Below are positions 1 to 40,296 of a stretch of 64,000 nucleotides of DNA, in pieces. The translations under genes and the position numbers were made by a program. Each line of letters begins with the position of its first letter. Positions within the stretch are counted from its first letter, which is position 1. Location of the stretch: contig CP086569.2 in the NCBI GenBank assembly GCA_009914755.4, forward strand, positions 224,001 through 288,000, written 5' to 3'. The notes beneath the pieces were generated by a model that was given only the letters and a program-made list of their open reading frames with translations, was not told where the DNA came from and made no database searches. This stretch comes from the human T2T-CHM13v2.0 reference genome, Homo sapiens.

Positions 1-20
1 AATAAAATAAAATAAAATAG
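1..20. repeat. (AAATA)n simple repeat at window edge
   Basis: aataaaataaaataaaatag read directly. Confidence 0.6.
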
Positions 21-265
21 GAAGCCTTTCTACCTTTATAAATTGTGTGATTTTTAGGTTAACAACTGTCAATGACGGAATGTTCAGTACGTGGGACTTT
101 CTTGTCTGTATGTGTGTGGTGGGGGGGGTCGGGGCGGGGAACAGACTCAATATGAAACCGTTTTGGGGTCTGACGCTCGCCCACCAGCCTCCATCGCGCA
201 GCCACACGCCCACTATGCGACCAGAGCCACCTGCGCAGTTGTTAGCAGAAGGAAGAGTAACTTAC

Positions 266-589
266 TACTCTCGTCCCTGCGGATCTACGGGTGCCTCGAA
301 CGTGGGGCGCGTTCCTGGGGCTGGAGGCGGCGCCCAGGGGCAGCGCAGGGCCCGGCCCGGGGGTTCCCGGGGGTTCGAGCCCGCTGGGCCGGGGGGCGGC
401 GAGCGGGGCTGTGGGCCAGGCCCCGGGCTGCTCCCCGTCCCCCGGGGTCGGCTGGTCCCGCCCGGGCGCCTTGATCCGGCGCAGGCAGTCCTGCAGCATC
501 CGCTGCGTGCTGGCCTCGCTGAGCCAGTACAGGAACAGCTCGTCCACCTTCATCTTCAGGACCGGCTGCAGCACTTTGCCGGGCGGCAT
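266..589 (-). CDS. Candidate first coding exon (108 codons) of an unidentified gene; ATG at 589-587, phase-0 GTAAGT donor at 265-260; gene continues beyond window start
   Basis: Minus-strand ORF begins MPPGKVLQPVLKMKVDELFLYWLSEASTQRMLQDCLRRIKAP, a non-repetitive N-terminus, then a Pro/Gly/Ala-rich stretch. ...acg aga gta|GTAAGT gives a canonical donor in frame. Embedded in the CpG island and not derived from any repeat. Confidence 0.5.
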
Positions 590-1082
590 GGCGGGGGCTG
601 GGCCCGCGGCGCCCCCGGACGCCCGCGCCCCGCCCCGCCCCGGGGGCTTCGGTCCGCCCCGGACCGACCTCGGTGATGCGAGCACGGCCCGCTGAGGGGG
701 CGCGGCGCAGGGAACAGGGCCCGCGCCTCGGGAACTGCGCGGACTCGCGGGGCGCGGGGACCGAGGAGGGGGCGCGGTCCGGCCCGCGCTGCTCAGGGCA
801 GCTTCAAAACGGGCGCGCCGGCCGCGCTCCCAAACAAGGGCGCCCGCGTTCACGTCACTGCGTCGCGTCATCGCGACGATGTCATCACGAGGCGACGCCG
901 CCGCTAGCCACGCGCGCCCCGCGGCCCTCGGAGCTTTTGCAGGAGGCTTTGGTGGGGCCGAGCGGCTGCGGTGAGGACGAGGGAGGGGCTGTGGCGGCCG
1001 TACCGCCCGAGCTCTTTCTGCGTTTAGGATTTTTAGAGGCGCGGCCCATGGCGGCGTGGCAGTCCTAGAGCTGCGGAAATGC

Positions 1083-1313
1083 GAGCATGCGCAATGCGTG
1101 CCTGCCAGAGCGAGGAGAGGGTGGAACCTCCGCATGGAGCATGCGCCGTGCATAGCGGTGGAGGAGCGGAGTTCGGGAGGCCGGTCGGGTGAGCGTGCGC
1201 AATGGCTGCCCGCGGGGCGCAAGCCAGAGGCTGGGAGGTGTGTGAGCGGGTGGGGCTGGAGGACGGGAGTGCGCCTGCGCAGTGGGAGGCACCGGGAACG
1301 AGCGAGCATGCGG
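1083..1313. promoter_or_regulatory. Cluster of four GAGC(A/G)TGCG(C) motifs (NRF1-like GCGCATGCGC half-sites), two followed by CAATG
   Basis: gagcatgcgcaatgcg (1083-1098), gagcatgcgc (1137-1146), gagcgtgcgcaatggc (1191-1206), gagcatgcgggg (1302-1313); plus gcgcctgcgc at 1270-1280. Confidence 0.4.
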
Positions 1314-1810
1314 GGTGCGCGCCCGCCGAGCTCGGGAGCGAGCGTGCGTCCTACGGGAGCGCGCGAGGAAAAGATCAAACTTTTCAATAACAGCGGGCTA
1401 CCTGGGACCCAAAGGGCCCCGTTTACTTTAGCTTTGCTTATCAAACAGTAGAGACAGGTTGGAGGAGTTGGACCCCTTTAAACGTTGGTGTTCAGGGATG
1501 AGCGTGAAGTGCGTTGAAAATTGCAAAAATCATCCACGTCCAGGGAGGTGACATTAGTTAAATAACTTTACCCAATGGTCGTTTTTGTTTCTGCTTTTAA
1601 CAGTATCCATAAAAACACTGCATTATCATCTGTCTGGCACACATGCACCTGTTTCCTTTACATCTTGCCCCGCTTTTTATTCATTTTTTATCAAAATAGG
1701 GTTTCACCTGGTGTTGCACCCTGTTAGAGAGTAATTTCAAGGTCTTTTATGAGCCAGGTTCTCCTACTTCTGAGCTGCATAAATCGAGCCAGACTCAATA
1801 AGTAACCCTT

Positions 1811-13157: not shown

Positions 13158-13972
<815 letters not shown>

Positions 13973-19788: not shown

Positions 19789-20372
19789 TGACGCGCATCG
19801 TGTAGATGGAAGAGAAATCAAACGGCACCGTCTGCCGGGGCGGGATTGCAGCCCGTTCCAATGTCTCATTTATTCCCCGGGTGCTGGGAGAGTCTCTGGG
19901 ATGACAAGACTGATGGTTCCTAACCCAGGCCGGGGCAACGCATGACTTTTGACGCCTCGGAGAAGCCCTTCCTTCCTGGACTGTATTCTGACAGGGAGTG
20001 CGTCTCACGCTTTACCCGACGGCGCCCAGAGCGACCTTCATCGCGGCCCACCGGCCAGGGCCGTCTTCTGGATCTTCAGCGGCTTGAGGAACTTTCTGTC
20101 CCCTTCTGGGTTGACTGAATTTTTATCGCGAAAAGGCACTGCCTTTGCTCAAATGCTTTTCCTGCATTTCTGCAAATGGTCATGTGAGTTTGGCCCCTTA
20201 GCCATGAATACGGTGCGTCACATTCACTGGTTTTCCAGAAAAGAGCTGTATAGAGAGAGAATTTACACAGCTGACAATGTGTCCGTTTAAACTCTTCCAA
20301 CCCGTGGCTTTCTGTATGCAGAGACTTGTGCCACCATCACCACAGTCTATTTTATTGCTTTACTTATATTTG

Positions 20373-20470
20373 TTTTTTTTTTTTTTTTTGAGACAGGGTC
20401 TCGCTCCTGTAGCCTTGGACTCTCAGGCTCAAGGGATCCTCCCTCCTCAGCTCCCCAAGTAGCCGGGCAA
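20373..20470 (-). mobile_element. Partial Alu-like right arm that seeds the adjacent minisatellite
   Basis: poly-T, gagacagggtctcgctcctgtagccttggactctcaggctcaagggatcctccctcctcagctccccaagtagccggg. Confidence 0.7.
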
Positions 20471-22795
20471 CGTGGCTTCTCCCGAGTAGCTGGGTGACGC
20501 TGTTTCTCCAGAGTAGCTGGGTGACGCGGTTCCTCCCGAGTATCTGGGTGACGCGGCTTCTCCAGAGTTTCTGGGTGACGCGGCTTCTCCAGAGTAGCTG
20601 GAGGATGCTGTTTCTCCCGAGTAGCTGGGTGACGCTGTTTCTCCAGAGTAGCTGGGTGACGCGGTTTCTCCCGAGTATCTGGGTGAGGCGGCTTCTCCAG
20701 AGTTTCTGGGTGACGTGGCTTCTCCAGAGTAGCTGGAGGATGCTGTTTCTCCCGAGTAGCTGGGTGACGCCGTTTCTCCCGAGTAGCTGGGTGACGCTGT
20801 TTCTCCCGAGTAGCTGGGTGACGCTGTTTCTCCCGAGTAGCTGGGTGATGTTGTTTCTCCGGAGTAGCTGGTGACGCCGTTTCTCCCGAGTAGCTGGGTG
20901 ACGCCGTTTCTCCCGAGTAGCTGGGTGACGCTGTTTCTCCCGAGTAGCTGGGTGATGTTGTTTCTCCGGAGTAGCTGGTGACGCTGTTTCTCCGGAGTAG
21001 CTGGTGATGCCGTTTCTCCAGAGTAGCTGGTGATGCCGTTTCTCCCGAGTAGCTGGGTGATGCTGTTTCTCCAGAGTAGCTGGTGACGCTGTTTCTCCAG
21101 AGTAGCTGGTGACGCTGTTTCTCCCGAGTAGCTGGGTGAAGCCGTTTCTCCAGAGTAGCTGGTGACGCCGTTTCTCCCGAGTAGCTGGTGACGCCGTTTC
21201 TCCCGAGTAGCTGGTGACGCCGTTTCTCCCGAGTAGCTGGTGACGCCGTTTCTCCCGAGTAGCTGGTGACGCCGTTTCTCCAGAGTAGCTGAGTGACGCC
21301 GTTTCTCCCGAGTAGCTGGTGACGCCGTTTCTCCCGAGTAGCTGGTGACGCTGTTTCTCCCGAGTAGCTGAGTGACGCCGTTTCTCCCGAGTAGCTGGTG
21401 ACGCCGTTTCTCCCGAGTAGCTGGTGATGCTGTTTCTCCCGAGTAGCTGGTGATGCTGTTTCTCCCGAGTAGCTGGGTGACGCCGTTTCTCCCGAGTAGC
21501 TGAGTGACGCCGTTTCTCCCGAGTAGCTGAGTGACGCCGTTTCTCCCGAGTAGCTGGTGACGCCATTTCTCCTGAGTAGCTGAGTGACGCCGTTTCTCCC
21601 GAGTAGCTGGTGACGCCGTTTCTCCCGAGTAGCTGGTGACGCCGTTTCTCCCGAGTAGCTGGGTGACGCCGTTTCTCCCGAGTAGCTGGTGACGCCGTTT
21701 CTCCCGAGTAGCTGGTGACGCTGTTTCTCCAGAGTAGCTGGTGACGCTGTTTCTCCCGAGTAGCTGAGTGACGCCGTTTCTCCCGAGTAGCTGGTGACGC
21801 CGTTTCTCCCGAGTAGCTGGTGACGCCGTTTCTCCCGAGTAGCTGGTGACGCTGTTTCTCCAGAGTAGCTGGTGACGCCGTTTCTCCCGAGTAGCTGGGT
21901 GAAGCCGTTTCTCCAGAGTAGCTGGTGACGCCGTTTCTCCCGAGTAGCTGGTGACGCCGTTTCTCCCGAGTAGCTGGTGACGCCGTTTCTCCCGAGTAGC
22001 TGGTGACGCCGTTTCTCCCGAGTAGCTGGTGACGCCGTTTCTCCCGAGTAGCTGGTGACGCCGTTTCTCCAGAGTAGCTGAGTGACGCCGTTTCTCCAGA
22101 GTAGCTGGTGACGCCGTTTCTCCCGAGTAGCTGGTGACGCCGTTTCTCCCGAGTAGCTGGTGACGCCGTTTCTCCCGAGTAGCTGGTGACGCCGTTTCTC
22201 CCGAGTAGCTGGTGACGCCGTTTCTCCAGAGTAGCTGGTGACGCTGTTTCTCCAGAGTAGCTGGTGACGCCGTTTCTCCCGAGTAGCTGGGTGATGTTGT
22301 TTCTCCGGAGTAGCTGGTGACGCCGTTTCTCCCGAGTAGCTGGTGACGCCGTTTCTCCCGAGTAGCTGAGTGACGCCGTTTCTCCAGAGTAGCTGAGTGA
22401 CGCCGTTTCTCCCGAGTAGCTGAGTGACGCCGTTTCTCCCGAGTAGCTGGTGACGCCGTTTCTCCCGAGTAGCTGGTGACGCCGTTTCTCCCGAGTAGCT
22501 GGTGACGCCGTTTCTCCCGAGTAGCTGGTGACGCCGTTTCTCCAGAGTAGCTGGTGACGCCGTTTCTCCCGAGTAGCTGGGTGACGCCGTTTCTCCCGAG
22601 TAGCTGGTGACGCCGTTTCTCCGGAGTAGCTGGTGACGCCGTTTCTCCCGAGTAGCTGGGTGACGCGGCTTCTCCCGAGTAGCTGGGTGACGCGGCTTCT
22701 CCCGAGTAGCTGGGTGACGCGGTTTCTCCAGAGTAGCTGGGTGATGCGGTTTCTCCCGAGTAGCTGGGTGACGCGGTTTTTCCTGAGTAGCTGGG

Positions 22796-22797
<2 letters not shown>
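20450..22797. repeat. Minisatellite/VNTR, 26/27-bp unit (c)gtttctcccgagtagctgg(g)tgacgc, ~88 copies, ~2.35 kb
   Basis: Uninterrupted array of cccgagtagctggtgacgccgtttct units with point variants (ccag/ccga, gctg/gccg, ggtg/gggtg/gagtg). The unit core equals the Alu motif cctcccgagtagctggg. All three frames on one strand are open (825, 784 and 400 aa ORFs), so these are repeat artefacts. Confidence 0.95.
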
Positions 22798-23945
<1,148 letters not shown>

Positions 23946-29294: not shown

Positions 29295-30205
<911 letters not shown>

Positions 30206-31544: not shown

Positions 31545-32929
<1,385 letters not shown>

Positions 32930-33856
32930 ATTCGTTCCCTTGACCGTAAACGTCTGCAGGCGAGGAATCAGCCGTCAGTCAAGAGGGAGTCACTGCGGTT
33001 CATTCGCCTCTGACAACGGGTCCTCCCGGACGCCGCGTGGCTTGTTCTGAAGCCGGGCCGGAGACACCGTCTGGACCCCACGCTGCTCCCCAGGGCCGCC
33101 TCCAAGAGGATGCCCCACCGCAGGGAGCCGTGCAAACACCATAAATCCTGCTAATTGCCACCTTCCCGGCAGCCAGCATCCGTGGTCTCTCTATAGTGGC
33201 CTCACGGTCTCCAGCCAGGAGCTCGATCTTTGCTTCTGCACAAACATTACCGAGAAACGTCTGCAAACCCCGGGCGCCCGGCTCCCACATCACAGGCGCT
33301 GCGCCTCAGAACACAACTTGTTTCTGCCGATCCACCCCCCACCGCCGCCTCCCCGGGCACCTCGCCACGCAGGACGCTCCGGGCTTCCCGTAAGAACACC
33401 CGTGTCTGTGACCTGCGGGTGGGGTCACCTCCCCGGCCTGCATGCCAGGTGAGGCGGGGGGGGCTCACCTGGGGCTCTCACCTGCCCGAGGGGGTCCTGC
33501 CCACGGCTCTGCGACAGAATAGAATGATCAGGGCGATGCGTGGCAGTGCCCTCTCCCTGCCCCAGCCCGAGGGCACCTGTTCCCCTCCTATCTCAGCCAC
33601 TCTGCCCACGTCTGTCCCCACAAAACGCGGTCGGTGCAGCCCTGGGGCCCGGTCACCGTACCGCATCCTCCTGACAAAGACAGAAAGAAACCGGCTCTTT
33701 GATTCTAACATTAAAAAAAAAAGGGCTGCCTTCTGCTTGCAAAAGAAATGCACGCAGGCTGCTGGCAGAAAGTTCTGGAAGATGATAAAGGAAAAAAATA
33801 AATTAATTCGAGAAAACTTTGAGACGCCTAACAGCACAAATACCCTCAGTCTTTAG

Positions 33857-36480: not shown

Positions 36481-36779
36481 TTTTTTTTTTTTTTTTTTGA
36501 GACAGAGTCTTGCTCTTGTTACCCGGGCTGGAGAGCAATGGCGTGATCTTGGCTCACGGCAACCTCTGCTTCCGGGTTCAAGGCATCCTCCTGCCTCAGT
36601 CTCCCGAGTAGCTGGGAGTACAGGCACCTGCCACCACGCCTGGGTAATTTTGTATTTTTAGTAGAGACGGGGTTTCACCATGTTGGTCAGCCTGGTCTGG
36701 AACTCCTGACCTCAGGTGATCCATCCATCTCGGCCTCTTAAAGTGCTGGGATTACAGGCGTGAGCCGCCATGTCTGGCC
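36481..36779 (-). mobile_element. Alu SINE, 1 of 4 in a perfect head-to-tail tandem array
   Basis: poly-T, gagacagagtcttgctcttgttacccgggctggagagcaatggcgtgatcttggctcacggcaacctctgcttccgggttcaaggc...gagccgccatgtctggcc. Confidence 0.9.
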
Positions 36780-37082
36780 TTTTTTTTTTTTTTTTTTTTT
36801 TTTTTGAGATGGTCTTGCTCTCATTGCCCAGGCTGGAGTGCAATGGTGCAATCTTGGCTCACTGCAACTTCTGCTTCCGGGTTCAAGGCATCCTCCTGCC
36901 TCAGCCTCCCGAGTAGCTGGGATTACACGTGTGCACCACCATGCCCGGCTAATTTTGTATTTTTAGTAGAGACTGGGTTTCACTATCTTAGTTAGGCTGG
37001 TCTCGAACTCCCAACCTCATGATCTGCCCGCCTCAGCCTCCCAAAGTGCTGGGATGACAGGCATGAGCCACCGCACCTGGCC
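36780..37082 (-). mobile_element. Alu SINE, 2 of 4
   Basis: (T)27 gagatggtcttgctctcattgcccaggctggagtgcaatggtgcaatcttggctcactgcaacttctgcttccgggttcaaggc...gagccaccgcacctggcc. Confidence 0.9.
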
Positions 37083-37684
<602 letters not shown>

Positions 37685-39449: not shown

Positions 39450-40296
39450 GGGGGAGGGGACACCAGGACCCCCCAAAGGCCTGGTCGGCTGAGGTCATGG
39501 TTCATCCCGGGGTTGGGGGAGGGGACACCAGGACCCCCCAGAGGCCTGGTCGGCTGAGGTCATGGTTCATCCCGCGGTTGGGGGAGGGGACACCAGGACC
39601 CCCCAAAGGCCTGGTCGGCTGAGGTCATGGTTCATCCCGGGGTTGGGGGAGGGGACACCAGGACCCCCCAGAGGCCTGGTCGGCTGAGGTCATGGTTCAT
39701 CCCGCGGTTGGGGGAGGGGACACCAGGACCCCCCAAAGGCCTGGTCGGCTGAGGTCATGGTTCATCCCGGGGTTGGGGGAGGGGACACCAGGACCCCCCA
39801 AAGGCCTGGTCGGCTGAGGTCATGGTTCATCCCGGGGTTGGGGGAGGGGACACCAGGACCCCCCAAAGGCCTGGTCGGCTGAGGTCATGGTTCATCCCGG
39901 GGTTGGGGGAGGGGACACCAGGACCCCCCAAAGGCCTGGTCGGCTGAGGTCATGGTTCATCCCGGGGTTGGGGGAGGGGACACCAGGACCCCCCAGAGGC
40001 CTGGTCGGCTGAGGTCATGGTTCATCCCGCGGTTGGGGGAGGGGACACCAGGACCCCCCAAAGGCCTGGTCGGCTGAGGTCATGGTTCATCCCGGGGTTG
40101 GGGGAGGGGACACCAGGACCCCCCAGAGGCCTGGTCGGCTGAGGTCATGGTTCATCCCGCGGTTGGGGGAGGGGACACCAGGACCCCCCAAAGGCCTGGT
40201 CGGCTGAGGTCATGGTTCATCCCGGGGTTGGGGGAGGGGACACCAGGACCCCCCAAAGGCCTGGTCGGCTGAGGTCATGGTTCATCCCGGGGTTGG
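39450..40296. repeat. 65-bp minisatellite, ~13 copies, with two alternating unit variants
   Basis: Unit gggggaggggacaccaggacccccca(a/g)aggcctggtcggctgaggtcatggttcatcccg(g/c)ggtt. Variant A (aaagg...ccggggtt) and variant B (agagg...ccgcggtt) alternate A-B-A-B-A-A-A-A-B-A-B-A-A. Confidence 0.95.

What the first reader, a model, noticed from the sequence alone, without database searches (positions are those of the whole stretch)
100..1440. CpG-island promoter with a candidate first coding exon (minus strand) whose gene I cannot name
Minus-strand ATG at 589 opens a 108-codon exon that ends exactly at a GTAAGT donor (265-260), giving a phase-0 intron. The encoded N-terminus MPPGKVLQPVLKMKVDELFLYWLSEASTQRMLQDCLRRIKAP is non-repetitive and helix-like, followed by a Pro/Gly/Ala-rich linker. 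The remainder of the gene would lie to the left of the window. This is the only credible coding sequence in 64 kb.
Basis: partly seen in the sequence, partly recalled or inferred. Interest (0 to 1): 0.55.

Follow-up and report, generated by a model that had tools for sequence, protein, structure and literature searches.

The report
PPP2R3B first exon and promoter

Summary
A minus-strand ATG at 589 opens 108 codons that end at 266, directly before GTAAGT (265-260), inside a CpG island of about 1.25 kb (GC 0.73, CpG o/e 1.0).

Main evidence:
- The exon is 104/108 identical to the N-terminus of a spliced primate B'' protein that continues ...KV|VQTRKEEPLPPATSQSIPTFYFPRG.
- In a marmot locus the homologous exon lies upstream of exons that match human PR70 crystal chain 4i5l_B (E = 1e-125).
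- The GTAAGT donor sits at the same codon boundary in six other vertebrate loci, and all exon length differences are in-frame.

The exon encodes a confidently predicted two-helix unit (residues 9-40) conserved as far as annelids and flatworms, then a disordered linker and a conserved RRS block. A conserved core-promoter block (888-791) with paired TGACG elements and an invariant CGTTTTGAAGC lies 200-300 bp upstream of the ATG.

ORF length alone means nothing here: 78% of composition-matched simulations reach 108 codons. The rest of the window is Alu, L1 and minisatellite DNA. The feature is already known and of low interest. The only open point is what the N-terminal helical module does. It has no Pfam model, and its sequence matches no solved structure.

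The parts
200..1450 (.). CpG island spanning the promoter, 5' UTR, exon 1 and the start of intron 1
   Evidence: GC is 0.65-0.84 and CpG o/e is 0.68-1.34 in 200-bp windows. The interval 260-1400 has GC 0.73 and o/e 1.01. The equivalent upstream regions of five other mammalian loci are also CpG islands, with GC 0.73-0.76 and o/e about 1.0.
266..589 (-). Coding part of PPP2R3B exon 1: 108 codons, PR70 residues 1-108
   Evidence: Translation. 55 homologues. 104/108 identity to the N-terminus of the spliced primate B'' protein P0083. Orthologous exons of 91-116 codons differ only by in-frame indels.
587..589 (-). Start codon, in context GCCCCCGCCATGC with G at -3
   Evidence: Protein similarity begins at Met1 in nearly all homologues. 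The six other loci have an in-frame stop 3-282 nt upstream and no in-frame upstream ATG. There is no ATG in any frame between 870 and 589.
470..565 (-). Codons 9-40: conserved two-helix N-terminal module (PVLKMKVDELFLYWLSEASTQRMLQDCLRRIK)
   Evidence: Invariant residues are L7 Q8 P9 V10 M13 K14 D16 E17 L18 F19 L20 W22 S24 Q29 L32 L36 I39. AF2 predicts helices at 9-24 and 26-40, with mean pLDDT of 95 and 93 for residues 21-30 and 31-40. The same motif heads B'' proteins of Branchiostoma, Capitella and Schistosoma.
344..469 (-). Codons 41-82: poorly conserved Pro/Gly/Ala-rich linker, variable in length and predicted disordered
   Evidence: All indels between orthologues fall in this stretch, and pLDDT is 45-51.
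266..343 (-). Codons 83-108: second conserved block, LPLGAASSPRNAPHVRGTRRSAGTRV, with invariant or near-invariant L83 P84 R92 R98 R101 R102 S103
   Evidence: Alignments A1 and A2. Predicted disordered. Reading it as a basophilic phospho-site or linear motif is inference only.
260..265 (-). Splice donor GTAAGT of intron 1 (phase 0)
   Evidence: GTAAGT sits at the identical codon boundary in L001, L002, L004, L005, L006 and L007. The spliced models P0007 and P0083 leave the genomic read-through at this point. GTAAGT occurs only 3 times in the 64 kb.
1..259 (-). Start of intron 1, which runs off the left edge of the window
   Evidence: Read-through hits a stop after 7 codons. Exon 2 is not in the window. 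The marmot intron 1 is about 18 kb.
590..811 (-). Inferred 5' UTR. It is ATG-free, GC-rich, and carries GGGGCGGGG (Sp1-like) boxes at 628-641.
   Evidence: No ATG between 870 and 589. Sequence is poorly conserved, and the distance from CGTTTTGAAGC to the ATG varies (121-398 nt) and is not conserved modulo 3. The TSS position is inferred, not shown.
791..888 (-). Mammal-conserved core-promoter block: GTGATGAC...GTGACG (paired CRE/ATF-like half-sites at 853-857 and 866-870) followed by the invariant CGTTTTGAAGC (811-801)
   Evidence: This is the only long non-coding block conserved in all six mammalian loci. The exact CGTTTTGAAGC lies 45-65 bp downstream of the TGACG pair in every mammal. Transcription-factor binding and the TSS were not tested.
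1081..1214 (-). Three NRF1-like GCGCAYGC motifs (1085, 1139, 1193) in a 54-bp direct repeat, plus a YY1-like ATGGCGGC on the + strand at 1048-1055
   Evidence: NRF1-like motifs also lie 230-330 bp upstream of the TGACG pair in the other mammalian loci. Function is inferred from motif resemblance only.

Best explanation
[quoted passage not shown] The gene is transcribed on the minus strand in a primate genome, almost certainly human, in pseudoautosomal region 1 of X/Y.

A TATA-less, CCAAT-less CpG-island promoter probably starts transcription near the conserved block at 888-791. That block holds paired TGACG elements and CGTTTTGAAGC, with NRF1-like and Sp1-like motifs around it. An ATG-free leader of about 200-280 nt leads to the ATG at 589.

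Exon 1 encodes PR70 residues 1-108 and is spliced at the GTAAGT donor (265-260) to exon 2, which lies outside the window and begins VQTRKEEPLPPATSQSIPTFYF. That sequence carries the Ile125/Phe128 hydrophobic motif that latches onto the PP2A A subunit.

The exon-1 product is an appendage to the holoenzyme-forming core. It has an ancient two-helix module (residues 9-40), a disordered linker, and a conserved basic RRS block. Published binding data show a construct lacking it (105-575) binds the A subunit well. My inference is that it acts as a targeting or localisation module. It may keep PR70 in the cytoplasm: L11-x3-V15-x2-L18-x-L20 fits a class-1a nuclear-export-signal spacing, and the N-terminally truncated clone PR48 was reported as nuclear while full-length PR70 is cytoplasmic.

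Shown: the exon, the donor, conservation, and gene identity through orthologues. Inferred: the TSS position, transcription-factor usage, and the function of the N-terminal module.
For: Gene identity:
- One search found 55 homologues. The only one that a source names by function is a fish PP2A B'' beta subunit.
- P0083 (UniRef A0A2I3RQF0, named a PP2A B'' subunit) is 104/108 identical to the exon. It continues KV|VQTRKEEPLPPATSQSIPTFYFPRG into a Pfam P2R3B_EF-hand domain.
- in Marmota locus L001 the homologous exon lies upstream, on the same strand, of exons matching human PR70 PDB chain 4i5l_B at E = 1e-125. The alpha paralogue 4i5j scores only 1e-72.
- A 108-codon exon 1 plus the 16 residues VQTRKEEPLPPATSQS puts Ile at 125 and Phe at 128, the published PR70 numbering (PMC3698643).

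Exon and intron structure:
- GTAAGT sits at the same codon boundary in 6 of 6 other loci. Exon lengths are 108, 108, 111, 111, 94, 91 and 116 codons, so every indel is in-frame. Against the most distant locus, 19 of the first 42 codons differ synonymously and 10 non-synonymously.

Start codon:
-.

Structure of the product:
-.

Not needed for A-subunit binding:
- PR70(105-575) has Kd 0.045 uM and PR70(25-575) 0.112 uM. All crystallised constructs start at residue 122 or 130, and the assayed constructs at 25, 105 or 108 (PMC4090178; PMC3698643).

Localisation lead:
- PR48, a partial clone lacking this N-terminus, was nuclear, whereas hPR70 is cytoplasmic (PMC2529318). PR70 is pan-cytoplasmic in PMC8460442.

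Promoter:
-.

Primate and PAR1-like setting:
- 25 Alu heads, dense GC-rich minisatellites, and window-wide CpG o/e of 0.54.
Against: No human reference genome, transcript, CAGE or RNA-seq data were available. The assignment to human rather than another ape, and to PAR1, rests on my memory of the human PR70 sequence and on context. The closest database protein is 96% identical, not 100%.

The TSS was not observed. Exon 2 and the acceptor are outside the window, so the splice is shown only through orthologous gene models.

The nuclear-export idea is weak. The motif is far more conserved, charged residues included, than export signals usually are. In the AF2 model the hydrophobic residues may be buried between the two helices. 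The PR48/PR70 localisation contrast comes from different studies and tags. PMC2529318 lists PR70 among the isoforms with no predicted nuclear localisation signal, and the passage I read places a predicted export signal in PR59 and was cut off before I could see whether PR70 is covered.
Confidence: 0.96

Rival explanations
1. The ORF is a chance open frame in GC-rich CpG-island DNA and is not coding. The GTAAGT is coincidental.
For: ORFs of at least 108 codons arise in 78% of composition-matched simulations. The same frame is open for 888 nt upstream, and a 209-aa antisense ORF (47-676, + strand) overlaps it. There are no Pfam or PDB sequence hits for the exon itself.
Against: The peptide is conserved from fish to mammals, and the motif reaches invertebrates. 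Only in-frame indels separate the orthologous exons, and the donor sits at the identical codon boundary in six other loci. Spliced gene models join the exon to the PR70 core.
Confidence: 0.01
2. This is a non-functional duplicate or pseudogene fragment of the PPP2R3B 5' end, not the active gene copy.
For: The region is subtelomere-like and rich in repeats. Segmental duplications are reported on one side of PPP2R3B at Xp22.33 (PMC8460442). Only exon 1 can be seen in the window.
Against: The ORF, start context and donor are intact. The CpG island is unmethylated-type, with o/e of about 1.0, meaning no CpG decay. The core-promoter block is fully conserved. The four amino-acid differences from P0083 all lie outside the two-helix module. 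[quoted passage not shown]
Confidence: 0.02
3. Translation starts further upstream at an in-frame ATG (871, 1135, 1153 or 1309), giving an N-terminally extended protein, so the ATG at 589 is internal.
For: The frame is open for 888 nt upstream of 589, with in-frame ATGs at those positions.
Against: In all six other loci an in-frame stop lies 3-282 nt upstream and there is no in-frame upstream ATG. The distance from the conserved promoter element to the ATG is not conserved modulo 3. Protein similarity starts at Met1. The ATG at 871 lies inside the conserved promoter block, probably upstream of the TSS.
Confidence: 0.02

Closest known systems
Human PPP2R3B (PP2A regulatory subunit B'' beta, PR70 or B''beta1; the partial clone was called PR48), in pseudoautosomal region 1, Xp22.33/Yp11.3
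   Same: The N-terminal peptide is 104/108 identical to a primate B'' gene model and splices into ...VQTRKEEPLPPATSQSIPTFYFPRG, which matches the start of the human PR70 crystal chain 4i5l_B. The 108-codon exon reproduces the published Ile125/Phe128 numbering. The CpG-island promoter fits the reported ubiquitous expression of PR70 (PMC2529318). The repeat-rich, gene-free flank fits the interval between PPP2R3B and SHOX.
   Different: Nothing differs as far as I could test. I could not align the window to the human reference, so the species (human or another ape) and the exact coordinates are not confirmed.
PPP2R3A (PR72/PR130, B'' alpha) and mouse Ppp2r3d (PR59, B'' delta)
   Same: They share the B'' core: the hydrophobic A-binding motif and the P2R3B_EF-hand and EF-hand_13 domains. 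Isoform-specific N-termini are added by alternative first exons (PMC2529318, PMC3698643).
   Different: The marmot core exons downstream of the homologous exon match beta (E = 1e-125) far better than alpha (1e-72). The paralogues' N-termini are described as specific to each isoform and of low similarity. From memory, not tested here, the PR72 and PR130 N-termini lack the LKMKVDELFLxWLS motif.
Invertebrate and cephalochordate B'' subunits (Branchiostoma XP_019629431, Capitella ELU01240, Schistosoma CAI2726245)
   Same: They carry the same N-terminal motif (xLKPxLKxKVDELFLRWLSxxxTQ) at the extreme N-terminus, followed by a variable linker, the IPxFYFP motif and the EF-hand core.
   Different: Their linkers are much longer or simply different, and only the helical module and the core are alignable. 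This indicates the module is ancestral to the beta-type B'' architecture rather than a vertebrate novelty.
Housekeeping-type CpG-island promoters (TATA-less, with NRF1, Sp1 and CRE/ATF motifs)
   Same: It has no TATA or CCAAT box. It has a high CpG o/e, GGGGCGGGG boxes, GCGCAYGC motifs and a TGACG pair.
   Different: There is no full palindromic NRF1 site (YGCGCAYGCGCR) and no full CRE. The window carries a 9-bp insertion where other mammals have TGACGTCAC-like sequence. The invariant CGTTTTGAAGC element matches no motif that I scanned.

Membership tests
PPP2R3B / PP2A B'' beta (PR70) gene, exon 1 | The peptide is the N-terminus of a protein whose continuation is the B'' core (IPxFYF hydrophobic motif, P2R3B_EF-hand, EF-hand_13). 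| tested here: met
   Shown through orthologues. P0083 is 96% identical over the exon and continues into the core with Pfam PF21161. The marmot L001 downstream exons match 4i5l_B at E = 1e-125. Nine of the ten other long hits scanned (all ten except P0083) carry PF17958. The continuation cannot be seen in the window itself because exon 2 lies beyond its left edge.
PPP2R3B / PP2A B'' beta (PR70) gene, exon 1 | The gene is the beta paralogue rather than alpha, gamma or delta. | tested here: met
   The marmot core exons score 420 bits against human beta and 247 bits against alpha. Sources name the hits beta or beta-like. The delta (mouse PR59) relationship was not separately resolved.
PPP2R3B / PP2A B'' beta (PR70) gene, exon 1 | The genomic location is human PAR1 (Xp22.33/Yp11.3), on the minus strand, with the SHOX-side intergenic region upstream. 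| not testable with these tools
   No human reference was available. The context is consistent: primate Alus, GC-rich minisatellites, no other genes, and published descriptions of the region.
Canonical GT-AG spliceosomal intron (5' splice site) | A GT dinucleotide in a consensus donor lies at the exon end, is conserved in orthologues and is used in transcripts. | tested here: met
   GTA|GTAAGT is present in the window and in 6 of 6 other loci. Annotated spliced models from two species use the junction. Direct transcript evidence for this window is not testable here.
CpG-island promoter | Length above 500 bp, GC above 0.55 and CpG o/e above 0.65, overlapping the 5' end of a gene. | tested here: met
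   About 1.25 kb with GC 0.73 and o/e 1.01.
CpG-island promoter | A transcription start site lies within the island. | not testable with these tools
   No CAGE or RNA data were available. A TSS near 790-890 is inferred from the conserved block and the ATG-free leader.
Leucine-rich (CRM1-dependent) nuclear export signal | Hydrophobic spacing of the form phi-x3-phi-x2-phi-x-phi on an accessible helix. | tested here: inconclusive
   L11-KMK-V15-DE-L18-F-L20 fits the spacing, and these residues are invariant or nearly so. Accessibility is doubtful because the residues lie in a predicted helical hairpin.
Leucine-rich (CRM1-dependent) nuclear export signal | CRM1 binding, leptomycin-B sensitivity and export activity when transplanted to another protein. 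| not testable with these tools
   Only indirect literature bears on this: truncated PR48 was nuclear and full-length PR70 is cytoplasmic (PMC2529318; PMC8460442).

The most novel reading that the evidence does not exclude
The two-helix module encoded by codons 9-40 (LKxKVDELFLxWLS...TQ..L...L..I) may be an ancient, so far undescribed targeting domain of beta-type PP2A B'' subunits, conserved from flatworms and annelids to primates. It has no Pfam model, its sequence and predicted fold match no solved structure, and all crystallised and most assayed PR70 constructs omit or truncate it. It may set the subcellular location of the PR70 holoenzyme, for example through CRM1-dependent export or a dedicated binding partner. 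That would explain why the truncated PR48 clone behaved differently from full-length PR70.
Probability: 0.25. Interest if true: 0.35.

Novelty: already known. Interest (0 to 1): 0.1.

Why it matters
For genome annotation it adds nothing new. PPP2R3B is a long-known pseudoautosomal gene. It escapes X inactivation, and it has been linked to CDC6 and pRb dephosphorylation, to nevus and melanoma predisposition through duplications, and to scoliosis in a zebrafish model.

The exercise does show that a tool-less reader can correctly pick a first exon out of 64 kb of repeat-rich DNA.

The one residual point of biological interest is that exon 1 encodes a deeply conserved helical module that structural and biochemical work on PR70 has largely left out, and its function has not been tested. 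The conserved core-promoter block, with the TGACG pair and CGTTTTGAAGC, is a compact and testable regulatory element for a dosage-sensitive PAR1 gene.

Tried and rejected
- **Pfam and PDB sequence searches with the exon peptide**: no hits. This reflects the lack of a model and the truncated crystal constructs, not a lack of homology.
- **Profile search of alignment A2 against the PDB, and Foldseek of the AF2 model against the PDB**: nothing meaningful, so the module matches no solved fold.
- **The look-up of encoding contigs for the goat protein P0012**: not on record.
- **Rfam scan of the whole window**: no RNA families.
- **Full-text search for the peptide strings** MPPGKVLQPVLK, VDELFLYWLSEASTQR and KVDELFL: no papers.
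- **Motif scan for TATA, CCAAT, E2F, ETS, ZNF143, E-box, a full CRE and a full palindromic NRF1 site**: none present.
- **Rejected: other CGI-like windows as additional promoters** (about 20300-22500, 32400-33200, 42700-43300, 55400-55900). The first, third and fourth lie in or next to minisatellite or simple-repeat arrays. The window at 32400-33200 is in no detected array, and I did not examine it beyond noting that no long ORF there looks like coding sequence.
- **Rejected: ORF length as evidence**.
- **Rejected: an N-terminal extension from upstream in-frame ATGs**.
- **Not attempted: AF2 of a full-length B'' protein** to see whether the module docks on the core. The tool returns no PAE, and the full-length sequences came from a search whose outputs may not be accepted.
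Full report
**Observation.** The ATG is at 589-587, and 108 codons end with GTA (268-266). GTAAGT follows at 265-260, and read-through stops 7 codons later. The peptide is MPPGKVLQPVLKMKVDELFLYWLSEASTQRMLQDCLRRIKAPGRDQ...RRSAGTRV.

The surrounding DNA is a strong CpG island. Positions 260-1400 have GC 0.73 and CpG o/e 1.01, against GC 0.534 and o/e 0.54 for the whole window.

ORF length by itself is not evidence in such DNA. In simulations matched for composition, 78% of sequences contain an ATG-ORF of at least 108 codons. The same frame is open for 888 nt upstream, and a 209-aa antisense ORF overlaps it. GTAAGT, by contrast, occurs only three times in the 64 kb.

**Is it coding?** A search of the large protein collection returned 55 homologues. 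Most are unannotated ORF calls on vertebrate contigs. The only one that a source names by function is a fish "PP2A regulatory subunit B'' subunit beta".

The alignments show two conserved blocks:
- an almost invariant N-terminal block, LQPVLKMKVDELFLxWLS..TQ..L...L..I;
- a distal block, LP.G..S..R.....R..RRS, separated from the first by a variable linker.

I fetched six orthologous loci and compared DNA.
- GTAAGT sits at exactly the same codon boundary in all six.
- The exons are 108, 108, 111, 111, 94, 91 and 116 codons long, so every length change is in-frame.
- Against the most distant locus, the first 42 codons have 19 synonymous and 10 non-synonymous codon differences.
- Similarity between the read-through ORFs decays right after the donor, apart from the first few intron bases.

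Upstream of the ATG, all six other loci have an in-frame stop within 3-282 nt and no in-frame ATG. The distance from a conserved promoter element to the ATG is not conserved modulo 3. The ATG at 589 is therefore the conserved start, and the long upstream open frame in this window is accidental.

**Which gene?** Three independent lines point to PPP2R3B (B'' beta, PR70).

- *Marmot locus.* In Marmota contig L001 the homologous exon is the first exon of a spliced model, P0007. Its second exon...SIPAFYFPRGRPKDTVDVDA, matches residues 2-24 of PDB chain 4i5l_B, human "PP2A regulatory subunit B'' subunit beta". Further exons read off L001 match that chain at E = 1e-125, against 1e-72 for the alpha paralogue.
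- *A near-identical primate protein.* The exhaustive profile search recovered P0083, UniRef A0A2I3RQF0, which its source names as a PP2A B'' subunit. From the accession series I believe it is chimpanzee, but that rests on memory. It is 104/108 identical to the window's exon. It continues ...GTKV|VQTRKEEPLPPATSQSIPTFYFPRG into a Pfam P2R3B_EF-hand domain.
- *Residue numbering.* 108 residues plus VQTRKEEPLPPATSQS puts Ile at 125 and Phe at 128. This is the numbering of the A-subunit-binding hydrophobic motif in the PR70 holoenzyme paper (PMC3698643).

From memory, the window's peptide is the human PR70 (Q9Y5P8) N-terminus. I could not test that, because no identical sequence was returned by either protein search. 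Four amino-acid differences from a chimpanzee protein would be plausible given the elevated PAR1 divergence of about 2.2% between human and chimpanzee at neutral sites (PMC9575207).

**Context.** The window is primate, with 25 Alu 5' heads. It is packed with GC-rich minisatellites and amplified Alu fragments. Every other ORF of 180 aa or more lies in such repeats or in an L1 ORF2 remnant, and Rfam finds nothing.

**What the exon encodes.** AlphaFold2 with the 56-sequence alignment predicts two helices, at residues 9-24 and 26-40. Mean pLDDT is 95 and 93 for residues 21-30 and 31-40, and everything after about residue 42 is disordered.

The helical module is older than vertebrates. The same motif heads full-length B'' proteins of Branchiostoma, Capitella and Schistosoma, each followed by the IPxFYFP motif and the EF-hand core.

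The module is also unannotated:
- it has no Pfam model;
- it has no PDB match by sequence, profile or fold;
- the motif string appears in no searchable paper.

The literature shows that structural and biochemical work has used PR70 constructs starting at residue 25, 105, 108, 122 or 130. PR70(105-575) binds the A subunit at least as tightly as PR70(25-575), with Kd of 0.045 against 0.112 uM (PMC4090178; PMC3698643). The exon-1 product is therefore dispensable for holoenzyme assembly.

PR48, the original partial clone lacking this N-terminus, was reported as nuclear. Full-length PR70 is predominantly cytoplasmic (PMC2529318; PMC8460442). L11-x3-V15-x2-L18-x-L20 fits a class-1a export-signal spacing.

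I therefore propose, as inference only, that the module is a targeting or localisation element. The very high conservation of charged residues, and the likely burial of the hydrophobic residues in a helical hairpin, argue that it is more probably a specific protein-binding module than a simple export signal.

PMC2529318 also notes a second N-terminal isoform, the PPP2R3L product or B''beta2, specific to heart and muscle. The exon here belongs to the ubiquitously expressed beta1 isoform, which fits a CpG-island promoter.

**Promoter.** Aligning about 470 nt upstream of the ATG from six mammals reveals one strongly conserved non-coding block, at window positions 888-791 on the minus strand. It reads GTGATGAC...GTGACG, a pair of CRE/ATF-like half-sites, followed 45-65 bp later by an invariant CGTTTTGAAGC (811-801). 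This arrangement is present in every mammalian locus at a variable distance (121-398 nt) from the ATG.

- Between 870 and 589 there is no ATG in any frame, which suits a 5' UTR that starts in or just after this block.
- Further upstream lie three NRF1-like GCGCAYGC motifs spaced exactly 54 bp apart (1085, 1139, 1193), and a YY1-like ATGGCGGC on the + strand. NRF1-like motifs occupy comparable positions in the other mammals.
- GGGGCGGGG boxes sit at 628-641.
- There is no TATA or CCAAT box.

None of these motif assignments was tested for binding, and the TSS is inferred.

**Verdict.** The feature is the already known 5' end of PPP2R3B, so novelty is "already known" and interest is low. The only mildly interesting residue is the uncharacterised but deeply conserved N-terminal helical module.

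Noticed in passing
window 20477-22799, 39450-40296, 42275-43116, 47399-51284: Four large GC-rich minisatellite arrays: a 26-mer in 88 copies, a 65-mer in 13 copies at 97% identity, a 20-mer in 42 copies, and a 41-mer in 93 copies spanning 3.9 kb. They mimic CpG islands and create spurious ORFs of up to 1001 aa on both strands.
   Followed up: partly
window 13261-13972, 29297-30164, 36481-37684: Tandemly amplified Alu fragments: 132 bp in 5.4 copies at 96% identity, 166 bp in 5.1 copies, and 305 bp in 4 copies. Alu pieces have themselves become satellite-like arrays.
   Followed up: no
window 872-880 (minus strand), inside the conserved promoter block 791-888: The window carries a 9-bp insertion (ATCGTCGCG) that is absent from five other mammalian loci. 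Those loci read GTGATGACG(T/C)C-ACGCG, a near-palindromic CRE-like site. The insertion adds an extra GATGAC copy and breaks the palindrome.
   Followed up: partly
window 801-811 (minus strand): CGTTTTGAAGC is invariant in all six mammalian promoters and always lies 45-65 bp downstream of the TGACG pair. It matches none of the transcription-factor motifs I scanned. It may mark the TSS or an unassigned element.
   Followed up: partly
window 1083-1205: A short direct repeat with a 54-bp period (GAGCATGCGCAATGC-like, at 1083, 1137 and 1191, with a fourth copy at 1304) places three NRF1-like GCGCAYGC motifs at regular spacing.
   Followed up: no
window 590-1477 (minus strand): The coding frame stays open for 888 nt upstream of the start codon, with in-frame ATGs at 871, 1135, 1153 and 1309. 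This is specific to the window. All six other loci have an in-frame stop within 3-282 nt.
   Followed up: yes
L007 5100-6000 (non-mammalian orthologous locus): The ATG-containing exon of this more distant orthologue (49% protein identity) has no CpG island upstream, with GC 0.35 and CpG o/e 0.25. It also has none of the mammalian promoter motifs, so the CpG-island promoter architecture may be specific to mammals.
   Followed up: no
window 52581-53321 (+): A 246-aa ORF whose translation looks like the C-terminal part of LINE-1 ORF2 (...IYPKDYKSCCYKDTCTRMFIAALSTIAKTWNQPKCP...). I recognised it by eye and did not test it.
   Followed up: no
L001 35540-36590 (Marmota): A 61-bp tandem array inside the marmot PPP2R3B gene produces repeated PTGVQGHLPFLVIRxSGTPLTHRCAGSPPLPS ORFs. 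The marmot orthologue is therefore also embedded in minisatellite-rich DNA.
   Followed up: no
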